Below, one piece after another: positions 42,214-55,945 of a stretch of DNA of 64,000 bases. This stretch comes from Minisyncoccia bacterium (lineage in GTDB: Bacteria > Patescibacteriota > Minisyncoccia > Phycocordibacterales > UBA918). The position numbers and the translations under genes were made by a program. Below the pieces are notes generated by a model, which did not search any database, was not told where the DNA came from, and was given only the letters and a program-made list of their open reading frames with translations. The DNA lies in the NCBI GenBank assembly GCA_041742075.1, contig JBGSJJ010000005.1, positions 17,648 through 81,647 on the forward strand. Reading direction: 5' to 3'. The first letter of the stretch is position 1. Each line of letters starts with the position of its first letter.

Positions 42214-45200
42214 ATGAACATATTTACTTTTACCAACCTATTTACAGCGCGCTGCTTTGCCGTTGTAACATTATTAGCAGTAGTGATGAGTGCCTTTCCG
42301 GCGCCTTTTTTTGTGTCGGAAGCCGAGGCCTTCAACAACGCACCAAGACTTGAAAAAGTGAAGTTCTGTCACGCGACTCCAAATGGTGACAGTCCATTTC
42401 AACTACAAAAGAAGTATGCGTTTGAAATAGCGCTTGGGCACCATAATCATGGTGGTGATATTTTCCCTACCTACGATGGTCCAGTGATAAATAATTACGG
42501 TGGCCAGAACCTAGATACTGAATATCCAGAGTATGGAGGTATGACTGGGGCAGACATCCTTAAGGCTGACTGTGAAGTACCAGAAACAGCCAAGCTTACC
42601 CTCGTAAAGAACGTTGTTGGTGGAGAAGCTGAAGCTAAAGACTGGAATTTGTCGGCAACCGCTCTCGGAGAAAACGATAACTTTGACTTTGAAGTTGAAG
42701 GAGACGAAGAAGGGGCTGAATACCTCATAGAGGCTGGTGTAGCATATGAAATTTCTGAAGAAGGTTCTGAAGAAAACTATACGCTTACGTCACTCACTTG
42801 TGACAAAGAAGGTGCTCTTTCAAACATTTACGAAGTTACCCTTGAAGAAGGAGACGATGTAACTTGTACCTTCACGAACACGTATGTACCTCCACACGTA
42901 CCAAAGGTGACGATTGAAGCGACAAAGATCATCTGTGAAGACGAAGCACTGCTTCCAAATGATGGGTACACAAACATTGACGCCAATACTGCAACTAACT
43001 TTTTGGCTGAAAACCCATCATGTTACCTCGCGCAAGATTGGGATTTCCAATATGCGGTTGGTGGCCTCAGTAACGGTAACTCACCAGATAATGATGGTGT
43101 ACTTGATGAGAATGGTTGGGACGAAGAAAATACTGTGTCTACAGTCGGAGGAGTAGCGACAATGGTTATCGAAATGAGTGAACTTGGTCAAAACCGAACT
43201 GTTTCAGTTCGAGAAGTGATGCAAGAAGGCTACATTCCATTTACTGGTCAACAAGGGGGTCCAGTTTCAGCAGAACTCTACTGCGCAAACGATGCGGCTA
43301 ACTTTGACAACCTTGAATGGGTACCAGTTTCAGCTGACAACACCTACCACTGTGTAGCTTGGAACGTGCCTGAACTCGAAACAGTAGAAGCGTGTAAGCT
43401 CGACGAAGCAGGCAACAAGCTTGCTGGTTGGGAAATGACCATCTCAAATGGTGATGATGAAGACGATGTAACGAAGGTAACTGGAGAAAACGGCTGTACG
43501 ACCTTTGAAGTAAATCCAAATAATGGTCCTTGGACAGTCTCAGAAACAGTCAAGACTGGCTGGGATCAAGTAGAAGTAGATGCTAATTGGGGCTATATAG
43601 TAGGAGAGGAGGGATCACAGTCATGTGAATTCTTTGGAAAACGTGCAGAAGCACGTACTAATATAGTTGTTGTAGATACTGAAGAGGGCTACAACTGTAC
43701 CTTCACCAACGAAGCAGCACCAATCTGTGTAGATAAGCCAAATGGTGACTTCGCCAATGATTACCAAGACGTAGACCAGAAAAAGCGAAAGGATGGCTCA
43801 GCTATTACTAATCCTGATCGAATTGACCCAAGCAAGGTGCTTGGCGCTAATGACTGGGTAGCGAACGGCAGTACTGGTTTCTTTGCACTTGGCTTTGGTG
43901 GTTCAATCGTGGTTGAGTTTGACTCATACGTACCAAACGTAGCAGGCAACGACATCACTGTCTTTGAAGCAACTAATGGCACCTACCCAGCTGAAACAGC
44001 CTTGGTAGAAGTAAGTCAAGACGGAAGTGACTGGGAAACAGTTGGTACTGCCAACAACACAAACGCTGGCAAAATTACAAACTTTGACTTCGATTCAACT
44101 GGCCTCGCATGGATTAAGTTTGTCCGAGTTACCGATACTAGTAATTCAGCGCTTCACACGAGCGATGCAGATGGCTTTGACTTAGACGCAGTGAAGGCGA
44201 CCCAAACAGTGTGTGTTCCTCCTGAGGAAGCACCAGTTTGTTCAGTAACGATTGTGAGTGATGAAACAAACATCGTTGGCGCTATGTTCGCGAAACTTGT
44301 TACCTTTATTCACAATGACTGGGATGCGATTGTCGCAGCACCAAGTGCGTGGATTTGGGGAGATGACCCGGTAGCTGACCCAGTAAACGAGACTATCCAG
44401 ACCTTTGAAAAGACCTTTGGTTGGAATGGTCCAGTTACTTCAGCTGTCCTCACGATTGCCGCTGATAACAGCTACGCTGTAGCGGTTAACGGTGACGCAG
44501 CGGGAAGTGACGCAACTGAAAAGAACTTTATTGTGGCTGACGTGCACGACCTGTCTGGCTTTATTGACCAAGGCAACAACACGCTCGCAGTTACCGTAAA
44601 GAACTGGGCACAAGCAAATGGAACTACTAAGAGTAATCCAGCTGGTCTTAAGTACGAACTCGTTATCACTGGTTCAGATGAGAACTGTGATGTACCGTAC
44701 GAAGAAGAAGTAGAGCCAGTAGACGTTACTATCTGTAAATACGACGCTAAGGAAAACGAACTAGCTGGATGGACACTCTCACTCCTTGGCAACAAGGTAG
44801 AAGATGTGGTTGTTCCAGCTACGAATGGTACTGGTGTAGACACGACAGCTGTCTTAAGTGGCGGTAAGTCATACGTAGCCAAGGCTATGGGTACTTGGGA
44901 CAATAACCGAGGCCCGCTCAACATTGTTGACGCTGAGTACTCAACTGAAGATACTTGGGCAACTTACATGAACGGCTTTGATGGCTACGGAGAAGATATT
45001 CTCGAGCTATCAGTAAACGGTCTTCTCGGAGACTGGGGAGCATACAACAGTGCTCATACTTACCTGCAAGCGTTTACGCAAGCAACTGGTACTGCAAACG
45101 TAGCGGTACAAGATACGTTCTATGGTGATAATACCGGTTCACTCAATGTCAGTATCTTTGAAGGATACGCTGGTATTACTGACAAAAACGGTTGCGTTAC

Positions 45201-46761
45201 CTTCAGTGACGTGACTCCAGGTTCATACACTATCGGTGAAGTGATGCAAGACGGTTGGACTAATCAGTCAGGTCTTGGTGAAGTAACTGTCAGTGAAGAA
45301 AACAACGAGTTTACCGTGGTAAACAAGGAAATTGATGAGGTAGCAACAGTTATCGCACACAAAATCGTGTGTACAGACGAAACTGACCTACCAAACTGGG
45401 CGGAACTAGAAAACACAGTTGGCGCAACCACAGCACTTGACTGGGTAAATGACCCAGAGAACCCAAGTTGTGAGCTTGTACCAGACTGGAAATTCCAGTG
45501 GACACTGCCACAAGGCGATCAGTCTAACCCAGACAATGACATTTCTGATGGAAATGAACTCTATGGTGAAGCAGAAGGTTGGACAACTTTTGGACCAACC
45601 GATGCAAATGGTATGACTACACTTACCCTCACTGAAGAAGACTTAGGTGATGCTGGGTATATCTGGATTCGTGAAGTGCTTCAAGACGGACACCTACCAT
45701 TTACCTATGGTCCAGACCAGCAAAACAACAATGACGACGTGAGTGCTGAAATCTATTGTCATAAAGACGTAAAGAACTATGACAACTATGACCGAGTAGA
45801 CGGTATTGAAGTTGGTGAGACATATAACTGTGTAGCTTGGAATCATATCGAGCCATCAGAACCAGTTTGTCTCGAACCAGAGACAAACCTCATTGCAAAC
45901 GGTGGTTTTGAAGCCAACGATGTAACTGATGGCGCTGGCTGGCAAATATTTGCTTCAGGCACGCCACTTCTAGAGTGGTTGGTAAGTTGGATTAATCCAA
46001 CTGGTGCTCCAGAAGTAGCCTCACTTGAACTCCATGGTGGAGTAAATGGTTGGCTACCAGCTGAAGGTCTGCAGTACGCAGAGCTTGATTCAGATTGGCA
46101 AGGTCCAGGTGGAGGCAACGGTGAAGCGGCATCAGTTTCTATCTCACAGACTGTGCCAACACTCGCCGGTGTAGACTACAACCTCGCATGGGACTTCTCA
46201 CCACGACCTGACCAAAACGGTACTGAAAACGTACTTGAGGTATTGGTTAACAACGTACTAGTAGACACTAATACAGCAGCTGGTAACGGTACTCAGACTG
46301 TATGGACAGGGGATTCAGTTACTTTTGAAGGAACTGGTGCTCCAATGACCATTACCTTCCGTGATGCTGGTACAAATAACTCAGTCGGAACCTTTGTTGA
46401 CGATATCTCAGTAAACTGCGTTCGCGGTGAAGGAGATGGCGACGGGGAAGGTGACGGAGATGGCGATAATGACGATACACCAACTATCCCTCCAACTATA
46501 CCAACTCCAGATGATGGTGATAACACCTCAACTCGACTAGAAGGACGTAACTCAGGTGGTTCGTCTGACTCATCAGATACTGAAACTGGCCTTGGTGGTA
46601 ATCCAGAAGGAGAAGTACTTGGTGACCAAGTGTCTGTTGTGCCATTTGGTGCAGCGAACGCTGGTTTCGGAGGAACAGCATCAGACGCCAAAGCAATGGC
46701 ACTGGTGCTTGCCCTTATCCTCGTACTCGCTCTCTTCTCAGTTCGACAGAAGGTTGCGTAA
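42214..46761 (+). CDS. Giant (1515 aa) multidomain cell-surface protein/adhesin with a C-terminal tripartite sorting signal
   Basis: Signal peptide. Repeated beta-sandwich modules ending in TCTFTN / YxCVAWN motifs. A jelly-roll region. A DUF642-like domain (LIANGGFE...AELDSD...ISQTVPTLAGVDYNLAWDFSPRPD). A GDGDGEGDGDGD spacer. Then EVLGDQVSVVPFGAANAGFGGT, a hydrophobic helix and the basic tail SVRQKVA. Confidence 0.7.
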   Translation: MNIFTFTNLFTARCFAVVTLLAVVMSAFPAPFFVSEAEAFNNAPRLEKVKFCHATPNGDSPFQLQKKYAFEIALGHHNHGGDIFPTYDGPVINNYGGQNLDTEYPEYGGMTGADILKADCEVPETAKLTLVKNVVGGEAEAKDWNLSATALGENDNFDFEVEGDEEGAEYLIEAGVAYEISEEGSEENYTLTSLTCDKEGALSNIYEVTLEEGDDVTCTFTNTYVPPHVPKVTIEATKIICEDEALLPNDGYTNIDANTATNFLAENPSCYLAQDWDFQYAVGGLSNGNSPDNDGVLDENGWDEENTVSTVGGVATMVIEMSELGQNRTVSVREVMQEGYIPFTGQQGGPVSAELYCANDAANFDNLEWVPVSADNTYHCVAWNVPELETVEACKLDEAGNKLAGWEMTISNGDDEDDVTKVTGENGCTTFEVNPNNGPWTVSETVKTGWDQVEVDANWGYIVGEEGSQSCEFFGKRAEARTNIVVVDTEEGYNCTFTNEAAPICVDKPNGDFANDYQDVDQKKRKDGSAITNPDRIDPSKVLGANDWVANGSTGFFALGFGGSIVVEFDSYVPNVAGNDITVFEATNGTYPAETALVEVSQDGSDWETVGTANNTNAGKITNFDFDSTGLAWIKFVRVTDTSNSALHTSDADGFDLDAVKATQTVCVPPEEAPVCSVTIVSDETNIVGAMFAKLVTFIHNDWDAIVAAPSAWIWGDDPVADPVNETIQTFEKTFGWNGPVTSAVLTIAADNSYAVAVNGDAAGSDATEKNFIVADVHDLSGFIDQGNNTLAVTVKNWAQANGTTKSNPAGLKYELVITGSDENCDVPYEEEVEPVDVTICKYDAKENELAGWTLSLLGNKVEDVVVPATNGTGVDTTAVLSGGKSYVAKAMGTWDNNRGPLNIVDAEYSTEDTWATYMNGFDGYGEDILELSVNGLLGDWGAYNSAHTYLQAFTQATGTANVAVQDTFYGDNTGSLNVSIFEGYAGITDKNGCVTFSDVTPGSYTIGEVMQDGWTNQSGLGEVTVSEENNEFTVVNKEIDEVATVIAHKIVCTDETDLPNWAELENTVGATTALDWVNDPENPSCELVPDWKFQWTLPQGDQSNPDNDISDGNELYGEAEGWTTFGPTDANGMTTLTLTEEDLGDAGYIWIREVLQDGHLPFTYGPDQQNNNDDVSAEIYCHKDVKNYDNYDRVDGIEVGETYNCVAWNHIEPSEPVCLEPETNLIANGGFEANDVTDGAGWQIFASGTPLLEWLVSWINPTGAPEVASLELHGGVNGWLPAEGLQYAELDSDWQGPGGGNGEAASVSISQTVPTLAGVDYNLAWDFSPRPDQNGTENVLEVLVNNVLVDTNTAAGNGTQTVWTGDSVTFEGTGAPMTITFRDAGTNNSVGTFVDDISVNCVRGEGDGDGEGDGDGDNDDTPTIPPTIPTPDDGDNTSTRLEGRNSGGSSDSSDTETGLGGNPEGEVLGDQVSVVPFGAANAGFGGTASDAKAMALVLALILVLALFSVRQKVA

Positions 46762-46784
46762 GTAGAATGACGCTTTAAACAAAA

Positions 46785-47054: not shown

Positions 47055-48458
47055 ATGAATACAAAACGATTAATCATGAGCCTCGGTATGCTCGCCTTTG
47101 TAGGTGCCGTGGTGGTAGGAGGAACCGGCGCGTTCTTTAGTGACCAAGAAGCGTCTGTCGGCAACGTGTTTGCCGCCGGTGACGTGGATGTTGAGATTCT
47201 AAACATTACTCATTCACCAGCTGAGCCAAACCTAGTTGGTTTTGAAGTATCTGAAGAAAGCTTCACGTTTTCTTTTGCTGACCTTAAGCCACTTGATACT
47301 GGAACTGTTACCTATACAATCCAAAATGATTCAAACCCAGCTTATGTCTGTGCCATGGTGGAAGAGACTGGAAACAATGACAACGCGACTAATGACCCGG
47401 AAGAAGACGCTGGTGATGACTCACCCGGAGTTGGTGAGGGTGAACTGGGACAATTTCTTAGTTTCAAGTTTGGTGATGAAACAGGCACCCTTGAAGCTAT
47501 CAGTGGTCTCTGGCAGACTGTTGGTGAGGTTGTTAACAATAACTCTATTCCTGCAGAAATTGACTACTGTTTCGGAGAATTTGACGGGCTAAACTGTGTG
47601 CTTGACGAAGATGCTGTGTATAACATGGCTCAGACAGATCAGCTTACAGCTGACGTGAAGTTCTACGCTGTGCAGACCCGAAACAATGAAGATTTCGACT
47701 GTTCTAGCTTGAATGAAGAGGTTGAACCAGATGTTTTAGCTAGTTATGCGACAGGTTTTGAACCAAATACATTCGCAGTTGGAAACATTAACACACAAGA
47801 TAATTGGGAAAAAACAGGTCCATTCGATGCTGCGGTTGTAAACAATCCTGCGATTGAAGGGTTGCAGTCACTTCGTATTTCAAATGCAGTTACGAGTGGC
47901 AGTTTTGGAGATCAGACCTTCTCACCTGAGCTTGCTATAGGAGCTGGGGAGACAGGAGTAGCTCCGGCAAAACGATTTGAGGCGGAATTCGAAATTTCTT
48001 CAATGCAAGTTGCTGAACAACCAGGCTTAGCGGTAACAGTTTCGCCAGACGATGGTAGTGGGTCACGAATGAGTTTCCTTCGTTTTTCAGATACACCAGC
48101 GGGAATTGATGTAACATTCTTCGATGCTACAAACCCTGGACCACTACCAACTGCGACAGCATTTAACCCGACTGTGATAGCGTCACTTGATCGAAGTATC
48201 TCTCACACTGTAAAGATGACTCTAGATTTTGTAGATGGACCTGGAAACGATATTGTTAAGGTCTACATTGATGGTGTACTTGAGCACACAGGAACTACTT
48301 GGGAAGACTATTATCGATTTGATTCAGAGCAATCAGGAAATGGAAATACTCTGTTTGCTGTTGATTCACTTCTATTCCGAACTTCAGGTACAGCAGCTCC
48401 AGCCACCTCTGGTGCAGGTTACTTGTTTGACACTTTAGTACTTACAACTAGTAACTAA
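47055..48458 (+). CDS. TasA/CalY/camelysin-family (peptidase M73-like) secreted protein with a SipW-cognate signal peptide and a C-terminal jelly-roll extension
   Basis: N-terminus ..VVVGGTGAFFSDQEASVGNVFAAGDVDVEI (SipW-cognate class). F.FADLKPLDTG..IQN and FYAVQTRNNEDF match camelysin core motifs. About 250 aa of extra C-terminal domain. Confidence 0.65.
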   Translation: MNTKRLIMSLGMLAFVGAVVVGGTGAFFSDQEASVGNVFAAGDVDVEILNITHSPAEPNLVGFEVSEESFTFSFADLKPLDTGTVTYTIQNDSNPAYVCAMVEETGNNDNATNDPEEDAGDDSPGVGEGELGQFLSFKFGDETGTLEAISGLWQTVGEVVNNNSIPAEIDYCFGEFDGLNCVLDEDAVYNMAQTDQLTADVKFYAVQTRNNEDFDCSSLNEEVEPDVLASYATGFEPNTFAVGNINTQDNWEKTGPFDAAVVNNPAIEGLQSLRISNAVTSGSFGDQTFSPELAIGAGETGVAPAKRFEAEFEISSMQVAEQPGLAVTVSPDDGSGSRMSFLRFSDTPAGIDVTFFDATNPGPLPTATAFNPTVIASLDRSISHTVKMTLDFVDGPGNDIVKVYIDGVLEHTGTTWEDYYRFDSEQSGNGNTLFAVDSLLFRTSGTAAPATSGAGYLFDTLVLTTSN

Positions 48459-48578
48459 CGAAATGTAGGGGTTGCATAATTTAGTCTTGACGAAAGTTAC
48501 TTCACACTTGAGAGGAGTAACTGGGTCAAGGCTTAAGTAATGCCTGATGAAAATTAGTTACTAATTATAACGAACGAT

Positions 48579-49883
48579 ATGAAACGAATTATTGGAAGTA
48601 GTGTGATGCTCTTGGCTGTTTTGGCCATTATAGTGGGTGGTACTGGTGCGTTTTTCAGTGATGAAGAGGTTTCAACTGGAAACGTGTTTACCGCTGGTGC
48701 TATCGACCTCACGGTAGACCAAGCGGAAGCCAGCTATAACGGCGAAAGTTGTGTAAACAACTGTGTCGCGAGTGGAAATGAACTCATTATTAATGGTGGT
48801 TTTGAAGACCCTGTGTTGAATAATCCAAACTACCAGATGTTTCCAACCGGTATCCTTGGTTGGAGTGTTGAGTCTGGGGCTGGTATTGAAGTTCAGCGAA
48901 ACGCAGCTGGTGCACCACATAGTGGAGCACAGCATGTTGAACTCGATAGTGATAACTCAACCACGATGTTCCAGACTCTTACCACAGTGGCCGGACAAAA
49001 GTACCGACTGTCATTTTGGCACTCACCACGACCGAATCGTCCCAACAACGACAACGTGATTGGTTATGAGGTGCAGGTGGTAAGTGGTGCAACCACTATT
49101 ATTGATGGTGTTGTTGGTGTTAATAACGCCGGTGGCAATACTACGGGCAATACTGTGTGGACACAGTACACGTACGACTTTATTGCAACTGATACTTCTA
49201 CCAAAATCATCTTTAGTGACCAAGGGACTGTTTTGAGTAACACGTACGGCGGATACCTCGACGATGTATCAGTTAAAACAATTACCTGTTCAGTTAGCAC
49301 CTACGCTGATACTCAGGGTGGATTCTGTGAACTTTGGGAGGCGACTGACCTCACGACCCAGAAGTTCTTTAATTTCTCTGATGTGAAGCCACAAGACTCT
49401 GGAACCAACCTTATTTCTCTCCACGTTGAAAACAACGAAGCCTACATGTGTCTCACTGTGGCTAACCAGGAAGATAATGAAAACCTAACTAATGATCCTG
49501 AACTTGAAGCAGGTGATGTACTCCCAGCTGGCGAGCTGTCTGAACACCTGATGGTAGCTGGTTGGTATAGTGACGAAAATGGTGCCAATCTCTCACCAAT
49601 GTTTGGTCCAACGTACATGAATGACCTTGAAGACATTACGTTTGCTGACAGTGACTCGACCGAAGACCCGATTGAGCCCGGCGCGACAAAGTATGTAAAC
49701 CTGGCGTGGTGTCTTGGTACGCTTACGGTTACCGGTAACACCTTTACCTGTGACGGTGATGTACCAAACATCAATCGAACTCAGACCGACTCTCTTTTAG
49801 CTGACCTTCAGTTCTACGCGGTCCAAACCCGAAACAACGAGGAATTCTCTTGCGAAGCGGTTGAAGAAACCCCAGATCTCTAA
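48579..49883 (+). CDS. TasA/camelysin-family protein with a SipW-cognate signal peptide and an inserted DUF642-like domain
   Basis: N-terminus ..IIVGGTGAFFSDEEVSTGNVFTAGAIDLTVD. Inserted LIINGGFEDP...VELDSD...FQTLTTVAGQKYRLSFWHSPRPN. Then F.FSDVKPQDSG and FYAVQTRNNEEF. Confidence 0.65.
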   Translation: MKRIIGSSVMLLAVLAIIVGGTGAFFSDEEVSTGNVFTAGAIDLTVDQAEASYNGESCVNNCVASGNELIINGGFEDPVLNNPNYQMFPTGILGWSVESGAGIEVQRNAAGAPHSGAQHVELDSDNSTTMFQTLTTVAGQKYRLSFWHSPRPNRPNNDNVIGYEVQVVSGATTIIDGVVGVNNAGGNTTGNTVWTQYTYDFIATDTSTKIIFSDQGTVLSNTYGGYLDDVSVKTITCSVSTYADTQGGFCELWEATDLTTQKFFNFSDVKPQDSGTNLISLHVENNEAYMCLTVANQEDNENLTNDPELEAGDVLPAGELSEHLMVAGWYSDENGANLSPMFGPTYMNDLEDITFADSDSTEDPIEPGATKYVNLAWCLGTLTVTGNTFTCDGDVPNINRTQTDSLLADLQFYAVQTRNNEEFSCEAVEETPDL

Positions 49884-49961
49884 GGAACTGGTAGTCTAAC
49901 TCTGTGCGGGCAAACACCATTTGCTCGCACTCCTTAGGCTAGCAGGGTCTATTCGTACATT

Positions 49962-50486
49962 ATGCAAACACTTTTAAAACTCGGCTACTATCTACTGGCA
50001 CTGTCTGTGCTGGTCTTCGGTATGCTTTTAGTTTTGATTCAGACACAGGTTCTGTCGGGATATGAAGTGCGGATTGTGCAGTCAGGCTCAATGGAGCCGG
50101 CGCTTACTACTGGGAGTGTGGTACTGATACGGGAGCAAGCGAGCTATCTTGTGGGCGATATCATCACCTACGGTGATGAGCGTTCTGGCAGTCTACCAAC
50201 CACGCACCGTATCGTGGCTGACCAACTACAGGAAGGAAAGATTGCCTTTACTACCAAAGGTGATGCAAACGATAGTGAAGACCAGTCAGTTACGAGCCTT
50301 GAGTCTGTGCGCGGTAAAGTGATTTTAGACATACCATATCTCGGATATTTGCTCGATTTTGCCAGACAACCACTCGGGTTTGCGCTCCTTATCGGTGTGC
50401 CAGCCGGGCTGATTGTGTTTGAAGAAGTTGGGTCAATTTGGTCAGCGGTACGAAATCGTAAAGAAGACGAAATAGAAAAAGTATGA
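49962..50486 (+). CDS. sipW: Signal peptidase I, SipW type (S26B, eukaryotic/archaeal-like)
   Basis: TM helix, then VQSGSMEPAL (catalytic Ser) and GDIITY..., the length and motif order of SipW. ATGA overlap with the next gene. Confidence 0.8.
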   Translation: MQTLLKLGYYLLALSVLVFGMLLVLIQTQVLSGYEVRIVQSGSMEPALTTGSVVLIREQASYLVGDIITYGDERSGSLPTTHRIVADQLQEGKIAFTTKGDANDSEDQSVTSLESVRGKVILDIPYLGYLLDFARQPLGFALLIGVPAGLIVFEEVGSIWSAVRNRKEDEIEKV

Positions 50487-51328
50487 GGTATCAACCACTA
50501 CAACAAGTATGGCAAAAATCCATCACACTGATGGCGATTCTGGCTGTACTTGGTGTACCAGTGACGACGGAGAGCTTTTTCACGAACCTTGAGACGTCAA
50601 CTGCTCAGGGTTTTGTCGCGACTGAACTGATTCTTGAAACACCTGCACCTATCGCTCCAGTCACCGTTGGTCCGGGGGTGTCGCTTAGTGAAGTAAGGAT
50701 AGTTCCAATTCTCACCACTGAAGCCAGTACTGAGTCATTTTTTGAACTGACTAGTCAAGCAGTCAGTAGTGACGGTCTCTTTTGTGATGCGCTTAAGCTC
50801 AGCGCTTCATGGGAAGCTTTTTCAGTCAGTAGCCACCCAGACACTCTTGATTCGGCCAGTTTGACTGACTATGGTGACTGGCAACTGACGCTAGACTACG
50901 ACGTAACCCAACATGACTTCGAAACGGGGGCTACCTGCACTATTACGCTTTCGGTTGAAGCCTGGCAAGCCAGTATGTCGCAAGAAACCGCTGGGTATCG
51001 CGACACGACCGAGGTAGAACTTGTCGTGACCGCTGACATGTCGCTCGTGGATTCTTTGCATACTCTCGGTGCTCGCGCTTCGGTCGCTGGACTTCCACTG
51101 ACTCAGCTGAGTATCTTGCTTGATGAACCAGAAATAGTTGAAGTTGAGCCAGTTGAGGCGGGTATTCTAGAGCCAACAGTAGTTGAATCGCCAATTGTGG
51201 AGGAACCAGTCGAGCCTGCTCATGAAGACCTGCCGGAAGTAGAGGAAGTTGATGCACAGCCTGAGGAAGAAGTACCAGAAGCTGAAGCACCACCTGAACC
51301 AGAGCCTACACCTGAAGAAACATCATGA
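50483..51328 (+). CDS. TapA-like secreted acidic protein with a SipW-cognate-like N-terminus
   Basis: TM segment, then TTESFFTNLETSTAQGFVATELIL (FF[ST][DN].E.S...F.A..L.L pattern). C-terminal E/P-rich acidic tail. Translationally coupled to sipW and to the next gene. Confidence 0.4.
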   Translation: MRYQPLQQVWQKSITLMAILAVLGVPVTTESFFTNLETSTAQGFVATELILETPAPIAPVTVGPGVSLSEVRIVPILTTEASTESFFELTSQAVSSDGLFCDALKLSASWEAFSVSSHPDTLDSASLTDYGDWQLTLDYDVTQHDFETGATCTITLSVEAWQASMSQETAGYRDTTEVELVVTADMSLVDSLHTLGARASVAGLPLTQLSILLDEPEIVEVEPVEAGILEPTVVESPIVEEPVEPAHEDLPEVEEVDAQPEEEVPEAEAPPEPEPTPEETS

Positions 51329-52380
51329 TAACTACTCTTAAAACAACCTGGGGAGGACTTTTCTGTGGGTTATTGCTATGGCTTATGCTTCCTGTAAGTG
51401 CGCTCGCGGCCGACTTGGCAGTCGTGTTTGAAGCGACGCCACTTTTTTCGAGCGCCAACATTGTACCCGGTGATAGTGTGAGTCGGACTATCGAAGTAAG
51501 TAATACCGGTACCGAAACGGAAGCTCTACTTCTGTCAGTGGCAAACACTTTCAGTAGTGGGTTGAGTGAGGTGATGTTACTTACGGTAACAAGTGGAAGT
51601 GATAGCTTTTTTGAGGGTACCTTTGTGGAGTTTTTTACCGCTACCCCGGTACCCCTGGGCGATATAGCTGATAGTTCTAGTCGTACCTACACCCTCACGG
51701 CTTCATTGCCAAGTGGGATAGGTAACGAATACCAGCTCGAAACGCTCGGCTTTGACCTCGTGATTGGTTTTGAAGGAGGTGAAACGGTGACGGATGGAGA
51801 GCCAGAAAGAAGTAGTGGTGGAGGCGGCGGAGGTGGTAGTTTTGACCTGTTTAATGAACGAGTAGTGGCGGTAGAACCAAGTACAGGAAGCGCGACAGTG
51901 ACGTGGAATACGAATCGGAACAGTTCCTCATATCTGATTTGTGGCAACCTTGAGGACGGACCGTTTTCCCTTAGTACCAACCCTCCGCTTTTTGGATACG
52001 TGTTTAGTGTGCCAGAAGAAGATACCGATACCGTCTCACACAGTATGACGCTGACTGATTTGGCGCTTGGTAGCTATGAGTGTCGGCCGGCTAGTCGAGA
52101 GGAATCAATTGATGATTTTACCGTAGGGCGAGTCGTAGAGTTTGACTTCACAAGCAATTTTGTCCCGGTTGGTTCAGTCTTAGGGGTCGGAACGACCTCG
52201 GGTGTGGATGTAGTACCTATGCCTGACGTTAAGGGAGCACAAGTATCCCTCTTACCTGATGGTGGACTTAACCTTGGTTTTGGCTACGTACCATATCGCA
52301 CACTGGTTCCGGTCGGTGTGGGCCTACTCTTAGTAGTGATTCTTTTAGTCTACTTACGTCGTTTCGTCAGAAGGAGCTAG
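51325..52380 (+). CDS. Membrane-anchored camelysin/TasA-like plus FN3-like protein with a C-terminal hydrophobic/basic anchor
   Basis: Sec signal (SALAADL). LFSSANIVPGDSVSRTIEVSNTG (camelysin NxKPGD-like). Gly-rich linker. FN3-like EPSTGSATVTWNTN. C-terminus ..LVPVGVGLLLVVILLVYLRRFVRRS. Confidence 0.4.
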   Translation: MITTLKTTWGGLFCGLLLWLMLPVSALAADLAVVFEATPLFSSANIVPGDSVSRTIEVSNTGTETEALLLSVANTFSSGLSEVMLLTVTSGSDSFFEGTFVEFFTATPVPLGDIADSSSRTYTLTASLPSGIGNEYQLETLGFDLVIGFEGGETVTDGEPERSSGGGGGGGSFDLFNERVVAVEPSTGSATVTWNTNRNSSSYLICGNLEDGPFSLSTNPPLFGYVFSVPEEDTDTVSHSMTLTDLALGSYECRPASREESIDDFTVGRVVEFDFTSNFVPVGSVLGVGTTSGVDVVPMPDVKGAQVSLLPDGGLNLGFGYVPYRTLVPVGVGLLLVVILLVYLRRFVRRS

Positions 52381-52533
52381 TAAGCAATTTGACAAGATTG
52401 TAAATATACGGTTATTCACAACTGTGGATAATTATTGACAAGACAATAAAACTCCATTGCGGTATATACTTACCGTATGTGAGACTTTTATAAGTCACAT
52501 TTTATATAAATAGTAGATAAATGAATTAGAGTT

Positions 52534-54108
52534 ATGAATTATAAAATAGTAGAACAAACTGCCAAGAACACCCTCGTGATTTTGGCAACCCTCGCACTCC
52601 TTACTAGTGCGTTCCCGGCGTCTTTAGCGTCAGCTCAAGTTGTTTTAGACGAACCAGAGTGTTTAATTGAAACACCAAACTTGATTGATAATGGTGGTTT
52701 TGAAGACCCTAATGTCACTGATGCAGCAGGTTGGGACATTTTTGACGAATCAGAAACAAACTGGAATGTAGAATGGATAAATGGTGGTGAAAGTGCTCCA
52801 GATCCAGAACTTGAAATCCATAAGGGCTCTGTATTTGGTTGGGGAGTAGAAGAAGGTGAGCAGTATGCTGAACTTGATAGTGACTTTGACGGTCCAGCTG
52901 GTTCAATCCAAGATGAACCAGCTTCACTTGAAATCTCTCAGAAAGTAGCAGTTGAAGAAGGAGCAACGTATAAGTTGTCATGGCTTTTCTCAGCTCGGCC
53001 AGATACTGGAGAAAGTGATAATGAACTAAATGTAGAAGTTGCACTTGGCGATGGAAATGTAAATACAACCAATAGTGCAAATGGAGGTTCTGATACAGAT
53101 TGGACGGCTGATTATCTTGTTTTTGAAGCAGATACAGAGAACATCGTCGTTTCATTCACTGATGAAGGAACACCAAACTCTCGCGGAACATTCCTCGATG
53201 GTGTGTCGCTTTGTAAGGTAGCAGAACCAGAAACTTCAACTGTAGACTTAACTGTCTGTAAGCTTGATACGCAAGAAGCAGGAGTAGAAGGTTGGGAATT
53301 TGAAGTTACCAACGATTCTGACTCAGAAGGTGGTTCATTTATTGTGACGACTGGTGAAGACGGGTGTGTTACGACACAAGTAGATCCAGAATTTGGTCCA
53401 TGGTATGTGTATGAAGTTGAACAGGAAGGATGGGTGTATGTAAATCATAGTGCTGATTTTGGTGAGGCGATTGATGTGCAGGGGAACAATGCCTGTCGAT
53501 TCTTCAATCGAGAAATAATCGATGAACAACTAACTACTAGATTAGTTAAGGTACTAGATACTGCTCCAGAGCTAAACTGCACGTTTGTAAATGAGCGCGA
53601 GCCAGAAGAAGGGAATGATGACCTTACCTGTTCACTTACAACAAGCGAAGACTCAGTCAGTAGTGGCGAAGAATTTACCCTTACTTGGGAGACTACAAAT
53701 GCTTCAAACGTATCAATCACTAACTTAGGCGATGTAGCGGTAGATGGTTCAGCTGAAACTACAATCGATACTGACACAACCTTTACACTTATCGCTAGCC
53801 GTTTTGTTGGAGAAGAAGAGACTGAAGAAACTGTACAATGTAGTGTAGAAGTCGACCGTCAATCAGGCGGCGGAGGTGGGGGAACACGAGTTAATCGTGA
53901 CGAACCAGAAGAAGATGAGGAGCCAGAGCCTGAAGTCTTGGGTGACAGTACTTCAATTCCACAAGGCGTAGTACTCGGTGACCAAATTTCAGCCGTACCA
54001 CTTGGTGCAGCTTCAACGGGAGCTGGTGGAACTTCACCAGTAGCACCAGTACAGCCGTATCTCGCTGCTTTGGCTATCAATGCAGTTCGAGTTGGAAAAG
54101 TGAAATAA
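52534..54108 (+). CDS. Secreted DUF642-like-domain surface protein with the same C-terminal sorting signal as the giant adhesin
   Basis: Signal peptide. LIDNGGFEDP...AELDSD...ISQKVAVEEGATYKLSWLFSARPD. Beta-sandwich repeats. Then VVLGDQISAVPLGAASTGAGGT, a hydrophobic stretch and RVGKVK. Confidence 0.6.
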   Translation: MNYKIVEQTAKNTLVILATLALLTSAFPASLASAQVVLDEPECLIETPNLIDNGGFEDPNVTDAAGWDIFDESETNWNVEWINGGESAPDPELEIHKGSVFGWGVEEGEQYAELDSDFDGPAGSIQDEPASLEISQKVAVEEGATYKLSWLFSARPDTGESDNELNVEVALGDGNVNTTNSANGGSDTDWTADYLVFEADTENIVVSFTDEGTPNSRGTFLDGVSLCKVAEPETSTVDLTVCKLDTQEAGVEGWEFEVTNDSDSEGGSFIVTTGEDGCVTTQVDPEFGPWYVYEVEQEGWVYVNHSADFGEAIDVQGNNACRFFNREIIDEQLTTRLVKVLDTAPELNCTFVNEREPEEGNDDLTCSLTTSEDSVSSGEEFTLTWETTNASNVSITNLGDVAVDGSAETTIDTDTTFTLIASRFVGEEETEETVQCSVEVDRQSGGGGGGTRVNRDEPEEDEEPEPEVLGDSTSIPQGVVLGDQISAVPLGAASTGAGGTSPVAPVQPYLAALAINAVRVGKVK

Positions 54109-54126
54109 TTACTTAGTTCAGGAAAC

Positions 54127-54158
54127 AAAACCGCGCGACTTTTAGTCGCGCGGTTTTC
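54127..54158 (+). terminator. Intrinsic terminator
   Basis: AAAACCGCGCGACttttaGTCGCGCGGTTTT. Confidence 0.65.
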
Positions 54159-54214
54159 GTCTATGCTCACCCCTTAGTACACTCCGAACTAAAAGAATGA
54201 TAATCTAAAGCGTA

Positions 54215-55213
54215 ATGAATACAGTTGCTACAAGTATTACTCCTGTTTTTTCTCACGAAACAGCCGGCAAGATTATGGCTACTCAGGTGCCGGTATTTTT
54301 AGTTTCGGAATCGCTCTCACACGTAGAAGAAGTTTTACGTAAGGATGCGCTTACGTTCAAAACAATCAACTATATTTACTTTGTTGATGAGGCCAGAAAG
54401 CTGGTTGGCGTGCTCTCAATTAAAGAGTTGCTATGCTGTAGTGACACGTATACGGTAGAGCAAATAACTACTAAAAAAATTTTTAGTGTTACCGCTGATA
54501 CCGACCAAGAACATATTGCGTTTCTCGCCCTGAAGCATAGTATCAAGGCGGTGCCTGTAGTTGATGATTCTGGTGTGTTTCTTGGAGTAGTGTCTTCAGA
54601 TACCATTCTTTCCATTCTTCATAGTGAGTCAATTGAAGACGCCCTGCATCATACGGGAACAGTGATTTTTGAAGACCCACTCGCGAGTCTCCGAACTGGT
54701 TCGGCTTGGCTTCACTTTAAGAAGCGAATCCCGTGGCTCATTATGGGCTTGGGTGGAGGAATTGGAGCCGCACTCGTCATTGAGGCCTTTGAGTCAACCC
54801 TAGAACAATTACTTATTTTGGCTACGTTTATTCCGCTTGTTGTCTATATGGCTGATGCGGTTGGCTCTCAGTCACAGACCATTTTTATTCGTTCACTCGC
54901 TCTCCCCGACACGCTGAGTATACGAGGCTATATCTTCCGAGAGCTAAAAGTAACTGCCATGATTGCCCTGTCACTCAGCGCTATTATGTTTATCGTGCTA
55001 TCGCTTTGGTTTGCATCATTTTTGGTAGGGACTATTGTCGCACTGACTATTTTATGTGGCGTGAGTGTGTCTGTGCTGATTGCGATGACCTTGCCGTATA
55101 CGTTTAAAAAGTTTAACTTTGACCCAGCACTTGCCAGTGGTCCTTTTGCAACGGTACTGTGTGACACTTCAAGCCTCCTCATCTATTTTTGTATTGCTAG
55201 TCTGATCTTATAG
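54215..55213 (+). CDS. MgtE-like divalent cation transporter, short form lacking the N-domain (CBS pair plus TM domain)
   Basis: CBS-pair region, then the MgtE TM signature FIPLVVYMADAVGSQSQTIFIRSL and 5 TM helices. Paralog of the gene at 233-1495. Confidence 0.75.
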   Translation: MNTVATSITPVFSHETAGKIMATQVPVFLVSESLSHVEEVLRKDALTFKTINYIYFVDEARKLVGVLSIKELLCCSDTYTVEQITTKKIFSVTADTDQEHIAFLALKHSIKAVPVVDDSGVFLGVVSSDTILSILHSESIEDALHHTGTVIFEDPLASLRTGSAWLHFKKRIPWLIMGLGGGIGAALVIEAFESTLEQLLILATFIPLVVYMADAVGSQSQTIFIRSLALPDTLSIRGYIFRELKVTAMIALSLSAIMFIVLSLWFASFLVGTIVALTILCGVSVSVLIAMTLPYTFKKFNFDPALASGPFATVLCDTSSLLIYFCIASLIL

Positions 55214-55267
55214 CTCAAAATTCGACTCATTTATAATTACCCGTGAATCTGCTATGGTAGTAGTATT

Positions 55268-55945
55268 ATGAAGAAAGCGGGTATACAGACCGAAGGGAAC
55301 CAGAGTACACGATGGCTGTTTGCTAAACTAGCAGTATTTTTGGTAGTTTTTCTCGCGCTAATGCTTTTTTTGAAAGTCTCTTCAACTGAGGCACCGGCAC
55401 CAGATACCATAGAAGAGTCGGTTACCGCAAGTACAACAATTCAAGGTACGATTCTTTCAGAATCGAGTCCTAACCGACTCCGTATTCCGAAGGTTAATAT
55501 TGATACTACTTTTGAAAAAGCACTCGGACTCAATGAAGACAAAACGGTTGAAGTACCCGTTGGGTATGAGCAGGTTGGGTGGTACAAGTTTGGGCCGACG
55601 CCAGGGGAGCTTGGGCCGGCAGTGATTCTTGGTCATGTTGATTCAGTTGATGGTCCGGCGGTTTTTTGGTCACTGGGGCAACTGACTGCTGGCGACGAGA
55701 TTTTTATTGACCGTGAGGACGGTAGTACAGCTCGTTTTGTGGTGACTGAACTTAAAAAAGTATCGCAAAATGATTTCCCGAGTCAAGTAGTGTATGGCGA
55801 CATTGATCACGCTGGACTCAGACTCATTACGTGTAGTGGAACGTTTAATCGGGGTGCCCAGCGCTATAGCCATAACCTAATTGTGTTTGCCAAGCTCGCT
55901 GAGGAACCAACCGGCGAAGAAGAAACCGAAGCAGAAACTCTCTAG
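55268..55945 (+). CDS. Sortase (class E/F-like transpeptidase)
   Basis: N-terminal TM anchor. VILGHVDS (catalytic His), LRLITCSG (TLxTC Cys), downstream Arg in TFNRG. 225 aa. Confidence 0.8.
   Translation: MKKAGIQTEGNQSTRWLFAKLAVFLVVFLALMLFLKVSSTEAPAPDTIEESVTASTTIQGTILSESSPNRLRIPKVNIDTTFEKALGLNEDKTVEVPVGYEQVGWYKFGPTPGELGPAVILGHVDSVDGPAVFWSLGQLTAGDEIFIDREDGSTARFVVTELKKVSQNDFPSQVVYGDIDHAGLRLITCSGTFNRGAQRYSHNLIVFAKLAEEPTGEEETEAETL

What the first reader, a model, noticed from the sequence alone, without database searches (positions are those of the whole stretch)
47055..55945. Complete TasA/camelysin-SipW fibre-assembly locus next to a sortase and giant adhesin, forming a composite cell-surface appendage island
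Reading 5' to 3', the locus encodes seven proteins of this module. (1, 2) Two TasA/camelysin-like proteins. Both carry the diagnostic SipW-cognate N-terminus (GGTGAFFSD.E.S.GNVF.AG) and the core motifs D[LV]KP.D.G and FYAVQTRNNE[ED]F. (3) A SipW-type signal peptidase with the SGSMEP motif. (4) A TapA-like acidic protein with a related FF[TS]N.E.S signal. (5) A C-terminally anchored third camelysin-like/FN3 protein. (6) A DUF642-like surface protein. (7) A sortase. Genes 3-5 are translationally coupled through ATGA overlaps. The organisation mirrors the Bacillus tapA-sipW-tasA biofilm-fibre operon. Here it is expanded to three subunit paralogs and combined with sortase-dependent anchoring. That combination is, to my knowledge, not a described system for a small-genome or CPR-like organism. 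It may build an extracellular fibre or pilus-like structure used for attachment, for example to a host cell.
Basis: partly seen in the sequence, partly recalled or inferred. Interest (0 to 1): 0.8.

Follow-up and report, generated by a model that had tools for sequence, protein, structure and literature searches.

The report
TasA-like adhesive fibre locus in CPR bacterium
This stretch of a tiny-genome (Patescibacteria/CPR) bacterium encodes a conserved kit for surface fibres related to the Bacillus biofilm protein TasA: subunits carrying sugar-binding-type domains, their own signal peptidase, and a sortase-linked anchor protein. The kit is widespread in these bacteria but untested, and it may be how they attach to other cells.

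Summary
At 47055-55945 there are two SipW-signal/TasA-like proteins (G1, G2), a SipW-type signal peptidase (G3), and two coupled genes with ATGA overlaps (G4, G5). A DUF642 protein (G6) and a class F sortase (G8) follow.

The kit is not special to this genome. 68 of 83 related Patescibacteria loci have 2-5 tandem TasA-like genes followed directly by SipW, and the family has about 5,700 representative clusters.

G4 is not a detectable TapA homologue. It belongs to a conserved "post-SipW" family that is often fused to SipW. G5 has a compact β-sandwich that is TasA-like only by profile comparison, plus a C-terminal sorting signal.

That signal is a non-canonical motif, VLGDQ[VI]S..[VL]PxG[AG]. 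It is shared with G6 and the giant adhesin G0. In every related locus that still includes the gene 5' of the sortase (7 distinct), that gene ends in this motif.

Fibre assembly by donor-strand exchange is inferred, not shown. I class it as a new variant of a known kind, of moderate interest.

The parts
47055..48458 (+). G1: TasA-like subunit, 467 aa. It has a SipW-type signal peptide, a conserved N-terminal strand, a jelly-roll core and a C-terminal ConA-like lectin-fold domain.
   Evidence: TIGR04088 scores 20.5 against a cutoff of 19. The AF2 model has pLDDT 87.9. The family profile matches only TasA in the PDB. There are 1346 homologues, the full-length ones from Kaiserbacteria/Paceibacterota.
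47055..47192 (+). G1 residues 1-46. This is the signal peptide, with predicted SipW cleavage at GGTGA|FFSD, followed by the putative donor strand FFSDQEASVGNVFAAGDVDV.
   Evidence: The segment aligns with TasA WA|AFND...FASGTLDL. The TasA donor strand is residues 28-38 (PMC9674648). The motif T.AFF.D.E.S..N.F.AG..DL is 86-99% conserved in 201 of 235 CPR TasA-like ORFs. pLDDT is below 50 in both models.
47184..47699 (+). G1 residues ~44-215: the TasA-like β-sandwich (jelly-roll) core.
47727..48455 (+). G1 residues ~225-467: a ConA-like lectin/glucanase-fold passenger domain, a putative glycan-binding module.
   Evidence: Foldseek against the PDB returns legume lectins, calreticulin, GH16, the PL20 lyase and the lectin module of the PilC minor pilin. 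The domain is 55-65% identical to many ~300 aa stand-alone proteins.
48579..49883 (+). G2: second TasA-like subunit, 434 aa. A DUF642/choice-of-anchor-C (CBM-like) domain is inserted after the first β-strand, at residues 69-233 (nt 48783-49277).
   Evidence: TIGR04088 scores 24.1. PF12389 scores 27.6 against a cutoff of 22.5. DUF642 scores 31.1 against a cutoff of 27. The L005 orthologue is 63% identical.
49962..50486 (+). G3: SipW-type (archaeal/ER-type, S26B) signal peptidase I, 174 aa.
   Evidence: TIGR02228 scores 98.7 against a cutoff of 51.85. The Bacillus SipW equivalog scores 106.9, below its cutoff of 190. SGSMEP is at residue 41, THR at 81 and GDAN at 100. A homologue sits directly downstream of the TasA-like genes in 68 of 83 loci.
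50483..51328 (+). G4: post-SipW protein, 281 aa. It has a TM/signal, a degenerate SipW-cognate motif, a ~120 aa core with two invariant Cys, and an acidic Pro-rich tail. It is a candidate initiator or cap.
   Evidence: It overlaps G3 by ATGA. The equivalent protein is fused to SipW in 24 loci and is a separate downstream gene in 38 loci, out of 68. HHalign of the N-terminal 34 columns against the TasA-like family gives 96% probability. C75, C126, E11 and D148 are invariant. The tail is 32% D+E and 19% P.
51325..52380 (+). G5: anchored subunit, 351 aa. It has an ordinary AXA signal peptide, a compact TasA-like/DUF11-like β-sandwich without the donor strand, a Gly linker, an FN3-like domain and a C-terminal sorting signal. 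It is a candidate fibre base.
   Evidence: It overlaps G4 by ATGA. HHalign of the G5 family against the TasA-like core gives 83.6% probability at E 8e-6. DUF11 hits are weak. All 36 homologues are from CPR bacteria. In L005 the sortase gene starts 3 nt after the G5 orthologue.
52228..52377 (+). G5 C-terminal sorting signal: VKGAQVSLLPDGGLNLGFG, a spacer, a TM segment and RRFVRRS.
   Evidence: The same motif family occurs in G0, G6 and the genes directly upstream of sortases in relatives.
52534..54108 (+). G6: a DUF642/choice-of-anchor-C and SpaA-like surface protein with the same sorting signal (VLGDQISAVPLGAASTGAGG..., nt 53971-54105). It is a sortase substrate and is not part of the conserved TasA module.
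   Evidence: DUF642 scores 29.1 against a cutoff of 27. The motif is shown. The gene is absent from the syntenic position in L005.
54215..55213 (+). G7: MgtE-type Mg2+ transporter with CBS domains.
   Evidence: PF01769 scores 83.2 and CBS scores 58.8. TIGR00400 scores 210.2, below its cutoff of 232.75. The gene is absent from L005.
55268..55945 (+). G8: class F sortase, 225 aa, with the catalytic LITCSG motif.
   Evidence: NF033748 scores 175.6 against a cutoff of 166 and PF04203 scores 78.1. Sortase homologues sit next to motif-bearing genes in 7 distinct related loci (L003, of which L004 is a second assembly, L005, L010, L084, L085, L086, L088).
42214..46761 (+). G0: a 1515-aa SpaA-like/choice-of-anchor-C adhesin carrying the same sorting signal (nt 46615-46758). 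It is a separate transcription unit and a sortase substrate.
   Evidence: SpaA_2, SpaA and SpaA_4 hits. The motif VLGDQVSVVPFGAANAGFGG is shown. Terminator-like hairpins lie at ~46783-46818 and 46962-46980.

Best explanation
This is a Patescibacteria (Paceibacterota-type) version of the SipW/TasA surface-fibre system.

Shown by sequence, profile and fold comparison:
- G1 and G2 are TasA-superfamily jelly-roll proteins with SipW-type signal peptides.
- G3 is the SipW-type peptidase that is almost always encoded directly after such genes.
- G4 belongs to a conserved partner family that is either fused to SipW or translationally coupled to it.
- G5, G6 and G0 end in a shared non-canonical sorting signal genetically tied to the class F sortase G8.

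Inferred mechanism:
1. G3 cleaves G1, G2 and G4 at GGTGA|FF. This exposes an extremely conserved N-terminal strand, FFSD.E.S.GN.F.AG..D[LV].
2. As in TasA (donor strand residues 28-38), this strand inserts into the β-sandwich of the next subunit. The subunits therefore polymerise by donor-strand complementation.
3. Each subunit carries a glycan-binding-type passenger: a ConA-like lectin fold on G1 and a DUF642/CBM-like insert in G2. The product would be an adhesive fibre.
4. G4 has a donor-type N-terminus, a small disulfide-bonded domain and an acidic tail. It would act like TapA, as initiator or cap.
5. G5 has a compact β-sandwich but no donor strand, plus FN3 and a sorting signal. It would accept the last donor strand and tie the fibre to the envelope.
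6. The class F sortase would anchor G5 covalently through [VL]PxG[AG]. It would also anchor the independent adhesins G6 and G0.

The likely role is attachment to surfaces or host cells.
For: Identity of the parts:
- Model hits above curated cutoffs for the SipW-cognate signals, the archaeal-type signal peptidase I, DUF642 and the class F sortase.

TasA homology of the core:
- All 17 N-domain homologues hit PF12389, best E 5.6e-9.
- The family profile searched against 177,635 PDB sequences returns only TasA (5of1, 8aur), with two collinear blocks outside the signal peptide.
- The Foldseek top hit, and the only hit at E <= 1e-3, is the TasA fibre 8aur_A.

Donor-strand inference:
- The 20 or so residues after the predicted cleavage site are 86-99% conserved in 201 of 235 CPR paralogues; sampled paralogues are otherwise roughly 30-45% identical to G2. 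This is far more than a peptidase site needs.
- That segment aligns with the TasA donor strand (PMC9674648).
- It is unstructured in both AF2 monomer models.

Module conservation:
- 68 of 83 loci have 2-5 tandem TasA-like genes followed by SipW.
- The post-SipW protein is fused in 24 loci and separate in 38. In 53 of 63 it carries a TM followed by a SipW-cognate-like motif.
- The G4-family N-terminus matches the TasA-like family at 96% HHalign probability.

Passenger domains:
- ConA-like fold on G1.
- A census of 106 paralogues finds SpaA_2 in 18, DUF642 in 4, VWA in 2, and LTD and β-helix in 1 each.

G5:
- HHalign against the TasA-like core gives 83.6% probability at E 8e-6, starting at the KPGD strand, so the donor segment is absent.

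Sortase link:
- The motif occurs only in G0, G5 and G6 within the 64 kb window.
- In 7 distinct related loci the motif-bearing gene abuts or overlaps the sortase gene.
- No canonical LPXTG or LAXTG signal occurs in 4495 ORFs.
- The gene order in L005 is G1-G2-SipW-G4-G5-sortase.
Against: - No polymerisation was tested. I had no multimer prediction and there is no experiment.
- The sequence matches to PDB TasA are below significance, at E 0.14-0.19.
- G1 misses the PF12389 gathering score (16.5 and 20.0 against 22.5).
- The TasA-likeness of G5 rests on one profile-profile hit at 84%. Its members also give weak DUF11 hits, and the family has no PDB sequence hit.
- The core of G4 shows no similarity to the TasA-like core (0.2% probability).
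- The sortase is absent from about 95% of TasA-like loci. Sortase anchoring is therefore a subclade add-on.
- Many G5 homologues have only a TM anchor.
- I could not check whether the genome also encodes a LepB-type peptidase. That G3 is a dedicated peptidase is therefore inferred from synteny only.
Confidence: 0.6

Rival explanations
1. G1 and G2 are non-polymerising surface lectins or adhesins. They are secreted and stay monomeric or wall-associated. They merely use a SipW-type signal peptide, and the conserved N-terminal segment is a peptidase or export determinant plus an ordinary edge strand of the domain. The cluster is then a surface-proteome island and not a fibre machine.
For: - No direct evidence of polymerisation exists.
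- The passengers (ConA-like, DUF642, VWA, SpaA_2) are typical of monomeric adhesins.
- Similarity to TasA is modest.
- SipW could be a general peptidase in these genomes. I could not test this.
Against: - More than 20 residues downstream of the cleavage site are 86-99% conserved across paralogues that are otherwise roughly 30-45% identical.
- This is the segment that forms the donor strand in TasA.
- There are always 2-5 paralogues plus a donor-type accessory protein coupled to SipW.
- Two classes of signal peptide coexist in the locus. G5, G6 and G0 have AXA-type signals, which argues for a specialised peptidase.
Confidence: 0.27
2. The cluster builds a sortase-polymerised (SpaA-type) Gram-positive pilus. 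The TasA-like proteins are accessory, and the sortase is the assembly enzyme.
For: A sortase and SpaA-like prealbumin-fold domains (G0, G6) are present.
Against: - The sortase is class F. The class C model scores 17.1 against a cutoff of 160.
- G1 and G2 have no C-terminal sorting signal.
- Only 4 of 83 TasA-like loci have a sortase nearby.
- G0 is separated from the cluster by terminator-like hairpins.
Confidence: 0.03
3. G1 and G2 are camelysin-type (M73) metalloproteases, as the Pfam name suggests.
For: The name of PF12389 is 'Camelysin metallo-endopeptidase'.
Against: - No locus protein contains an HExxH motif.
- The Pfam match covers mainly the signal and N-terminal strand.
- TasA has been solved as a jelly-roll fibre subunit (PMC9674648).
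Confidence: 0.02

Closest known systems
Bacillus subtilis tapA-sipW-tasA biofilm fibre operon (TasA fibre, PDB 8AUR; TapA initiator)
   Same: - A dedicated archaeal-type signal peptidase is encoded with its substrates.
- The substrates have the special signal peptide with aromatic residues just after the cleavage site.
- The subunit is a jelly-roll.
- The conserved N-terminal segment corresponds to the TasA donor strand.
- An accessory protein has a donor-like N-terminus, a small β-domain and a disordered tail.
   Different: - The gene order is tasA-like xN, sipW, accessory.
- There are 2-5 subunit paralogues, each fused to an adhesin or lectin-type passenger domain.
- The accessory protein (G4) is not detectably homologous to TapA and is often fused to SipW itself.
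- There is an extra anchored β-sandwich/FN3 protein (G5).
- In this subclade there is a sortase link.
- The organism is a CPR bacterium, not a Firmicute.
- Nothing has been tested experimentally.
Bacillus cereus sipW-tasA(calY1)-bc1280-calY2 locus
   Same: SipW sits with more than one TasA-family paralogue. One paralogue is proposed to take the initiator role (PMC10151520).
   Different: The B. cereus paralogues are plain camelysins without passenger domains. That locus has no sortase-type anchor subunit and no SipW fusion.
Archaeal bundling pili AbpA/AbpB (Pyrobaculum calidifontis, PDB 7UEG) and related TasA-like archaeal filaments
   Same: The filament is a TasA-superfamily donor-strand filament. 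An accessory TapA-like protein is proposed to initiate assembly and possibly to carry adhesive distal domains (PMC9245690).
   Different: The archaeal operon has no dedicated signal peptidase. Its subunits lack lectin passengers. The sequences are much more divergent from this locus than bacterial TasA is.
Chaperone-usher pili (Fim/Pap) and modular pilins carrying lectin modules (for example S. sanguinis PilC, PDB 7OA7/7OA8)
   Same: The concept is shared: donor-strand-linked β-sandwich subunits, specialised end subunits (one lacking a donor strand), and lectin domains grafted onto filament subunits. The PilC lectin module is a Foldseek hit of the G1 C-terminal domain.
   Different: There is no chaperone, usher or type IV machinery here. 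The resemblance is analogy, not homology. Here the strand-less subunit (G5) is at the cell-anchored end, whereas in chaperone-usher pili it is at the tip.
Class F sortase housekeeping anchoring of LPXTG proteins (Actinobacteria)
   Same: The enzyme is a class F sortase above the NCBIfam cutoff. Its substrates have a C-terminal motif, a hydrophobic stretch and a basic tail.
   Different: The cognate motif here is VLGDQ[VI]S..[VLMW]PxG[AG]..G.GG. Compared with LPXTG, T is replaced by G and G by A/G. No LPXTG or LAXTG substrate occurs in any sortase locus examined.

Membership tests
TasA/camelysin family (Pfam PF12389 Peptidase_M73) | Score above the Pfam gathering threshold (22.5 bits) | tested here: inconclusive
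   G2 scores 27.6 bits and passes, but the match covers only residues 2-49. G1 scores 16.5 bits as the full protein and 20.0 bits as the N-domain, and fails. All 17 N-domain homologues hit at E <= 0.01, best 5.6e-9.
TasA/camelysin family (Pfam PF12389 Peptidase_M73) | SipW-dependent-type signal peptide (TIGR04088) | tested here: met
   G1 scores 20.5 and G2 scores 24.1 against a cutoff of 19. G4 is not detected by the model.
TasA/camelysin family (Pfam PF12389 Peptidase_M73) | Mature core with the TasA jelly-roll fold | tested here: met
TasA/camelysin family (Pfam PF12389 Peptidase_M73) | [quoted passage not shown] | not testable with these tools
   Only indirect evidence is available: extreme conservation of the post-cleavage segment and its alignment with TasA residues 28-46. 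No multimer prediction was available.
SipW / archaeal-type (S26B) signal peptidase I | Match to TIGR02228 above cutoff, and the Ser/His/Asp motifs | tested here: met
   G3 scores 98.7 against a cutoff of 51.85. SGSMEP, THR and GDAN are present.
SipW / archaeal-type (S26B) signal peptidase I | Equivalog of Bacillus SipW (NF046067, cutoff 190) | tested here: not met
   G3 scores 106.9 bits, below 190. It is SipW-type but not the Bacillus equivalog.
SipW / archaeal-type (S26B) signal peptidase I | Encoded next to its cognate substrates | tested here: met
   It sits directly downstream of the TasA-like genes in 68 of 83 loci.
TapA (B. subtilis fibre initiator) | Sequence homology to the TapA Ig-like core | tested here: not met
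   The G4-family profile, searched against all PDB sequences at E <= 10, returned only TasA 5of1 (E 0.58), and no TapA chain was among the hits. A TapA crystal structure (6HQC) is cited by PMC9245690. I did not separately confirm that it is in the copy searched. There are no Pfam or NCBIfam hits beyond TIGR04088 in 5 of 17 members.
TapA (B. subtilis fibre initiator) | SipW-processed N-terminus resembling the subunit donor strand | tested here: met
   HHalign of the G4 family against the TasA-like family gives 96% probability at E 1.5e-9 over the N-terminal 34 columns. The motif of the window's own G4 is degenerate.
Class F sortase | NF033748 above cutoff, and the catalytic TLxTC-type Cys | tested here: met
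   G8 scores 175.6 against a cutoff of 166. LITCSG is present.
Class F sortase | LPXTG-type sorting signal on neighbouring substrates | tested here: not met
   No LPXTG or LAXTG signal occurs in 4495 ORFs. Instead, [VLMW]PxG[AG] sits within a longer conserved motif on the adjacent genes.
Sortase-assembled (SpaA-type) pili | A class C pilin polymerase, and pilin subunits with sorting signals | tested here: not met
   The class C model scores 17.1 against a cutoff of 160. G1 and G2 lack any sorting signal.
DUF642 / choice-of-anchor C | PF04862 above 27 bits; TIGR04362 above 120 bits | tested here: inconclusive
   PF04862 passes for G2 (31.1) and G6 (29.1). TIGR04362 stays below its cutoff (75.2, 40.1 and 47.4).

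The most novel reading that the evidence does not exclude
The locus builds a polar, heteropolymeric donor-strand fibre with built-in end subunits.

- A SipW-coupled initiator or cap (G4) starts or ends the fibre. In many relatives it is made as a fusion with its own signal peptidase and released by self-processing.
- Lectin-bearing shaft subunits (G1, G2) form the body.
- An acceptor-only base subunit (G5) is covalently fixed to the envelope by a class F sortase through a previously unrecognised [VL]PxG[AG] sorting signal.

This would be a chaperone-free, usher-free functional analogue of chaperone-usher pili. It would serve ultra-small CPR bacteria as a host-attachment organelle.
Probability: 0.3. 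Interest if true: 0.8.

Novelty: new variant of a known kind. Interest (0 to 1): 0.55.

Why it matters
CPR/Patescibacteria are thought to live attached to other cells. So far, type IV pili are essentially the only attachment structures studied in them.

This locus type is a second candidate appendage that is widespread. About 5,700 clusters of the subunit family exist at 50% identity, and there are 366 hits among GTDB species representatives. Its subunits display lectin, CBM, VWA and SpaA-type modules.

If the fibres are real, they give concrete and testable candidates for host recognition. They would also extend donor-strand TasA-type assembly to modular, adhesin-carrying heteropolymers.

Two side findings are directly testable in vitro: SipW-substrate fusion proteins, and a non-LPXTG signal for class F sortases. 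Both are of interest for protein-sorting biology and for sortase engineering.

Tried and rejected
- Single-sequence phmmer of G1 and G2 against the PDB gave only chance hits.
- Fold search with the full-length G1 model was dominated by the C-terminal ConA-like domain and did not show TasA. I therefore re-predicted the N-domain alone.
- The word-indexed homologue search for G4 found only 2 proteins. I built the family from synteny instead.
- My first regular expression for the SipW-cognate motif was too strict. I replaced it with an HMM of the motif.
- HHalign of the G4 core against the TasA-like core was negative at 0.2%. The G4 core against the G5 N-domain gave only 55.6%.
- The G5-family profile had no PDB sequence hit.
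- The exact-match contig look-up for the window's own G1 found nothing on record, and the cluster look-up gave no names. The source organism is therefore inferred from homologues.
- Rfam and tRNA scans found nothing in the locus.
- Overlapping and antisense ORFs have no Pfam hits.
- Promoter-like sites are not enriched: 9 found against 12.7 expected.
- The camelysin-protease reading is rejected because there is no HExxH motif.
- The SpaA-type pilus reading is rejected.
- Literature searches found no paper on TasA-like or donor-strand fibres in Patescibacteria beyond one sentence in PMC9245690.

Full report
**1. What is there**

The region 47055-55945 carries eight + strand genes, not seven.

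- G1, 47055-48458, 467 aa.
- G2, 48579-49883, 434 aa.
- G3, 49962-50486, 174 aa.
- G4, 50483-51328, 281 aa.
- G5, 51325-52380, 351 aa.
- G6, 52534-54108, 524 aa.
- G7, 54215-55213, 332 aa.
- G8, 55268-55945, 225 aa.

| Gene | Model | Score | Cutoff |
|---|---|---|---|
| G1 | TIGR04088, SipW-cognate signal | 20.5 | 19 |
| G2 | TIGR04088, SipW-cognate signal | 24.1 | 19 |
| G3 | TIGR02228, archaeal-type signal peptidase I | 98.7 | 51.85 |
| G3 | Bacillus SipW equivalog | 106.9 | 190 (not met) |
| G2 | DUF642 | 31.1 | 27 |
| G6 | DUF642 | 29.1 | 27 |
| G8 | Class F sortase | 175.6 | 166 |

G3 carries the SGSMEP, THR and GDAN motifs. The ATGA overlaps G3/G4 and G4/G5 are real.

The giant adhesin G0 (42214-46761) is followed by terminator-like hairpins. 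G1 therefore starts a new transcription unit. Overlapping and antisense ORFs have no family hits, and no RNA family lies in the locus.

**2. Is the G1/G2 core really TasA-like?**

The Pfam PF12389 matches cover mostly the signal and N-terminal strand (G2 residues 2-49). I therefore tested the mature core separately.

- Full-length G1 homologues come from Candidatus Kaiserbacteria and Paceibacterota.
- A profile of 17 N-domains (A3), searched against all 177,635 distinct PDB sequences, returned only TasA (5of1 and 8aur) at E 0.14-0.19. There were two collinear blocks, lkPGD and N..Q.DS...F.A.Q. Both lie outside the signal peptide, which the PDB chains lack.
- All 17 members hit PF12389, best E 5.6e-9.
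- The AF2 model of full-length G1 has pLDDT 87.9. The N-domain model has pLDDT 77.5. Both show a β-sandwich with residues 1 to about 40 unstructured.
- With the N-domain model, the Foldseek top hit among 350,542 chains, and the only hit at E <= 1e-3, is the TasA fibre 8aur_A, with probability 0.99.

Each line is modest, but they all point the same way. I accept TasA-superfamily membership of the core with moderate to high confidence.

No protein in the locus has an HExxH motif. The Pfam label 'camelysin metalloprotease' should be ignored.

**3. Passenger domains**

- The C-terminal half of G1 (about residues 225-467) has a ConA-like lectin/glucanase fold. Foldseek finds legume lectins, calreticulin, GH16, a PL20 lyase and the lectin module of the S. 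sanguinis PilC minor pilin.
- G2 carries a DUF642/choice-of-anchor-C (CBM-like) domain inserted after the first β-strand.
- Among 106 related CPR TasA-like proteins, SpaA_2 occurs in 18, DUF642 in 4, VWA in 2, and LTD and β-helix in 1 each.

The family is thus a conserved N-terminal TasA-like module that displays variable adhesin-type modules. It is large. There are 5,699 clusters at 50% identity with E <= 1e-3, and 1,020 with E <= 1e-30. In the best 150 matches listed, the module lies at or near the N-terminus in almost every case.

**4. Conservation of the module**

A scan of GTDB species representatives found 366 relatives. The best 80 are almost all Patescibacteria: Kaiser-, Taylor-, Zambryski-, Adler-, Vogel-, Nomura-, Lloyd- and Moranbacteria, and Paceibacterota.

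In 68 of 83 loci held, 2-5 tandem TasA-like genes are followed directly by a SipW homologue. Many of the remaining loci are cut off by contig ends.

The protein after SipW is fused to SipW in 24 loci and is a separate, often overlapping, gene in 38. In 53 of 63 cases it carries a TM segment followed by a SipW-cognate-like motif, G.T.SY[FY].D.E.S..N...A..LDF.

G4 belongs to this family. It shares the motif position, two invariant Cys and a G[YF].D.E motif. HHalign of the N-terminal 34 columns against the TasA-like family gives 96% probability.

The core of G4 shows no similarity to the TasA-like core (0.2%). Its similarity to the G5 N-domain is weak (55.6%). The family profile's only PDB match at E <= 10 is TasA, weakly (E 0.58); no TapA chain was returned. 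G4 is therefore TapA-like in architecture and possibly in role, but it is not a TapA homologue.

**5. G5 and the sortase**

G5 has 36 homologues, all from CPR bacteria and several on the same contigs as G1 homologues.

Its N-domain aligns with the TasA-like core from the KPGD strand to the C-terminal strand (HHalign 83.6%, E 8e-6). It lacks the SipW signal and the donor segment, and it has an ordinary ALA|AD signal peptide. Members also give weak DUF11 hits, and the family has no PDB sequence hit. This assignment is tentative.

The C-terminus of G5 (VKGAQVSLLPDGGLNLGFG, then a TM segment and RRFVRRS) matches those of G0 (VLGDQVSVVPFGAANAGFGG...) and G6 (VLGDQISAVPLGAASTGAGG...). No other ORF in the 64 kb window has this motif.

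About ten G5 homologues share the motif. The others have a plain TM anchor.

Seven distinct related loci hold both a sortase homologue and the gene 5' of it: L003 (of which L004 is a second assembly), L005, L010, L084, L085, L086 and L088. In all of them the gene that ends at or overlaps the sortase start carries this motif. No canonical LPXTG or LAXTG signal occurs in 4,495 ORFs.

In the closest relative, L005, the order is G1-G2-SipW-G4-G5-sortase-CAP, with the same 4-nt overlaps. The window's G6 and MgtE genes are therefore an insertion between G5 and its sortase.

Only 4 of 83 TasA-like loci have a sortase nearby. Sortase anchoring is a subclade feature.

**6. Mechanism**

This section is inference. 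In TasA, SipW cleaves after A27. Residues 28-38 form the donor strand that completes the β-sandwich of the next subunit. TapA supplies the first donor strand (PMC9674648; PMC10151520).

G1 and G2 align as GGTGA|FFSD...NVFAAGDVDV against TasA GGTWA|AFND...TFASGTLDL.

In 201 of 235 CPR paralogues the motif T.AFF.D.E.S..N.F.AG..DL is 86-99% conserved. The rest of these proteins is roughly 30-45% identical to G2. That is far more conservation than a peptidase site requires, and it fits an inter-subunit interface.

I therefore propose the following model.

1. SipW-dependent maturation of the subunits.
2. Donor-strand polymerisation of the lectin-bearing G1 and G2 subunits.
3. G4 acts as initiator or cap.
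4. G5 acts as the acceptor-only base, sortase-anchored in this subclade.

The main rival is that these proteins are monomeric SipW-secreted adhesins.

I could not run multimer predictions. I also could not check whether a LepB-type peptidase exists elsewhere in the genome.

**7. Novelty**

Wang et al. 2022 already state that PF12389 homologues are readily identifiable in Patescibacteria (PMC9245690). NCBI already names these proteins as SipW-dependent-signal proteins.

I found no paper describing the locus architecture or any fibre in CPR bacteria. Méheust et al. 2019 note only that sortase is enriched in CPR (PMC6744442).

To my knowledge the following are undescribed:
- the multi-paralogue, passenger-bearing architecture;
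- the SipW-coupled or SipW-fused partner family;
- the anchored G5 family;
- the [VL]PxG[AG] sorting signal.

Verdict: a real, conserved locus of partly known kind. It is a new variant of the TasA/SipW system, of moderate interest, and its function is untested.

Noticed in passing
window 46615-46758 (G0), 52228-52377 (G5), 53971-54105 (G6); L003 5725-8169, L005 4900-5961, L010 2040-4529, L084 2-3298, L085 1-375, L086 1872-5978, L088 3-2561: There is a non-canonical C-terminal sorting signal: VLG[DEA]Q[VIT]S..[VLMW]PxG[AG]..[ATL]G.G[GS], then a hydrophobic stretch and a basic tail. It sits on the gene directly upstream of, or overlapping, every class F sortase homologue examined. No LPXTG or LAXTG signal occurs in these loci, and no NCBIfam anchor model matches. 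This is probably the cognate signal of this CPR sortase clade.
   Followed up: partly
L001 16016-17713, L003 14861-16702, and 22 other loci: In 24 of 68 related loci the SipW peptidase is fused, through a basic linker and a second TM segment, to a protein with a SipW-cognate cleavage motif. That protein is the G4 equivalent. The peptidase would therefore have to cut its own C-terminal extension. In the window the two are separate genes joined by an ATGA overlap.
   Followed up: partly
window 47727-48455 (G1 residues ~225-467): The ConA-like C-terminal domain of G1 is 52-66% identical to hundreds of proteins that match only this half of G1. Most are about 300 aa and some are longer. They come from diverse bacteria, for example Microgenomates and Candidatus Acidoferrum, and have no Pfam family. 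The N-terminal TasA-like half is much less conserved. This is an unusually conserved, unannotated lectin/glycanase-like domain.
   Followed up: partly
window 52534-55213: G6 (DUF642 adhesin) and G7 (MgtE/CBS Mg2+ transporter) are absent from the syntenic position in the closest relative L005, where the sortase directly follows G5. They look like an insertion into the G5-sortase pair.
   Followed up: yes
window 56057-57391: A CAP/YkwD-family (SCP-like) secreted protein with a C-terminal TM region lies directly downstream of the sortase. It is conserved in that position in L005 (39% identity) and is also present downstream in L086 (57% over the N-terminal part).
   Followed up: partly
window 61628-63896: Two more predicted surface proteins lie here. 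ORF 62817-63896 has a near-threshold WxL-interacting-protein/Fn3-like domain (25.6 bits against a cutoff of 27.3) and a C-terminal TM segment. ORF 61628-62701 has no family hit. This may be a second surface-protein module.
   Followed up: no
window 57465-61286: There is a UmuD-like S24 peptidase (57465-57923) and a Y-family polymerase of the ImpB/UmuC type (59943-61286). A GH18 glycosyl hydrolase (58080-59417) lies between them.
   Followed up: no
window 39452-40303; L044 13450-14973 and other post-SipW proteins: A Lamin-Tail-Domain protein lies upstream of the adhesin G0 (33.1 bits against a cutoff of 34.3). One of the 106 related proteins scanned has a clear LTD hit (E 2.2e-15). Several post-SipW partner proteins carry an EWVELYN-type segment that may be the same domain.
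   Followed up: no
L006, L008, L009, L034, L037, L049, L054 (record titles): Several MAG contigs carrying this typically patescibacterial locus are titled 'uncultured Gammaproteobacteria' or 'Pseudomonadales'. Many others are titled 'Candidatus Saccharibacteria', although their closest named homologues are Paceibacterota or Kaiserbacteria. The automatic taxonomic labels, or the binning, of these TPA assemblies look unreliable.
   Followed up: no
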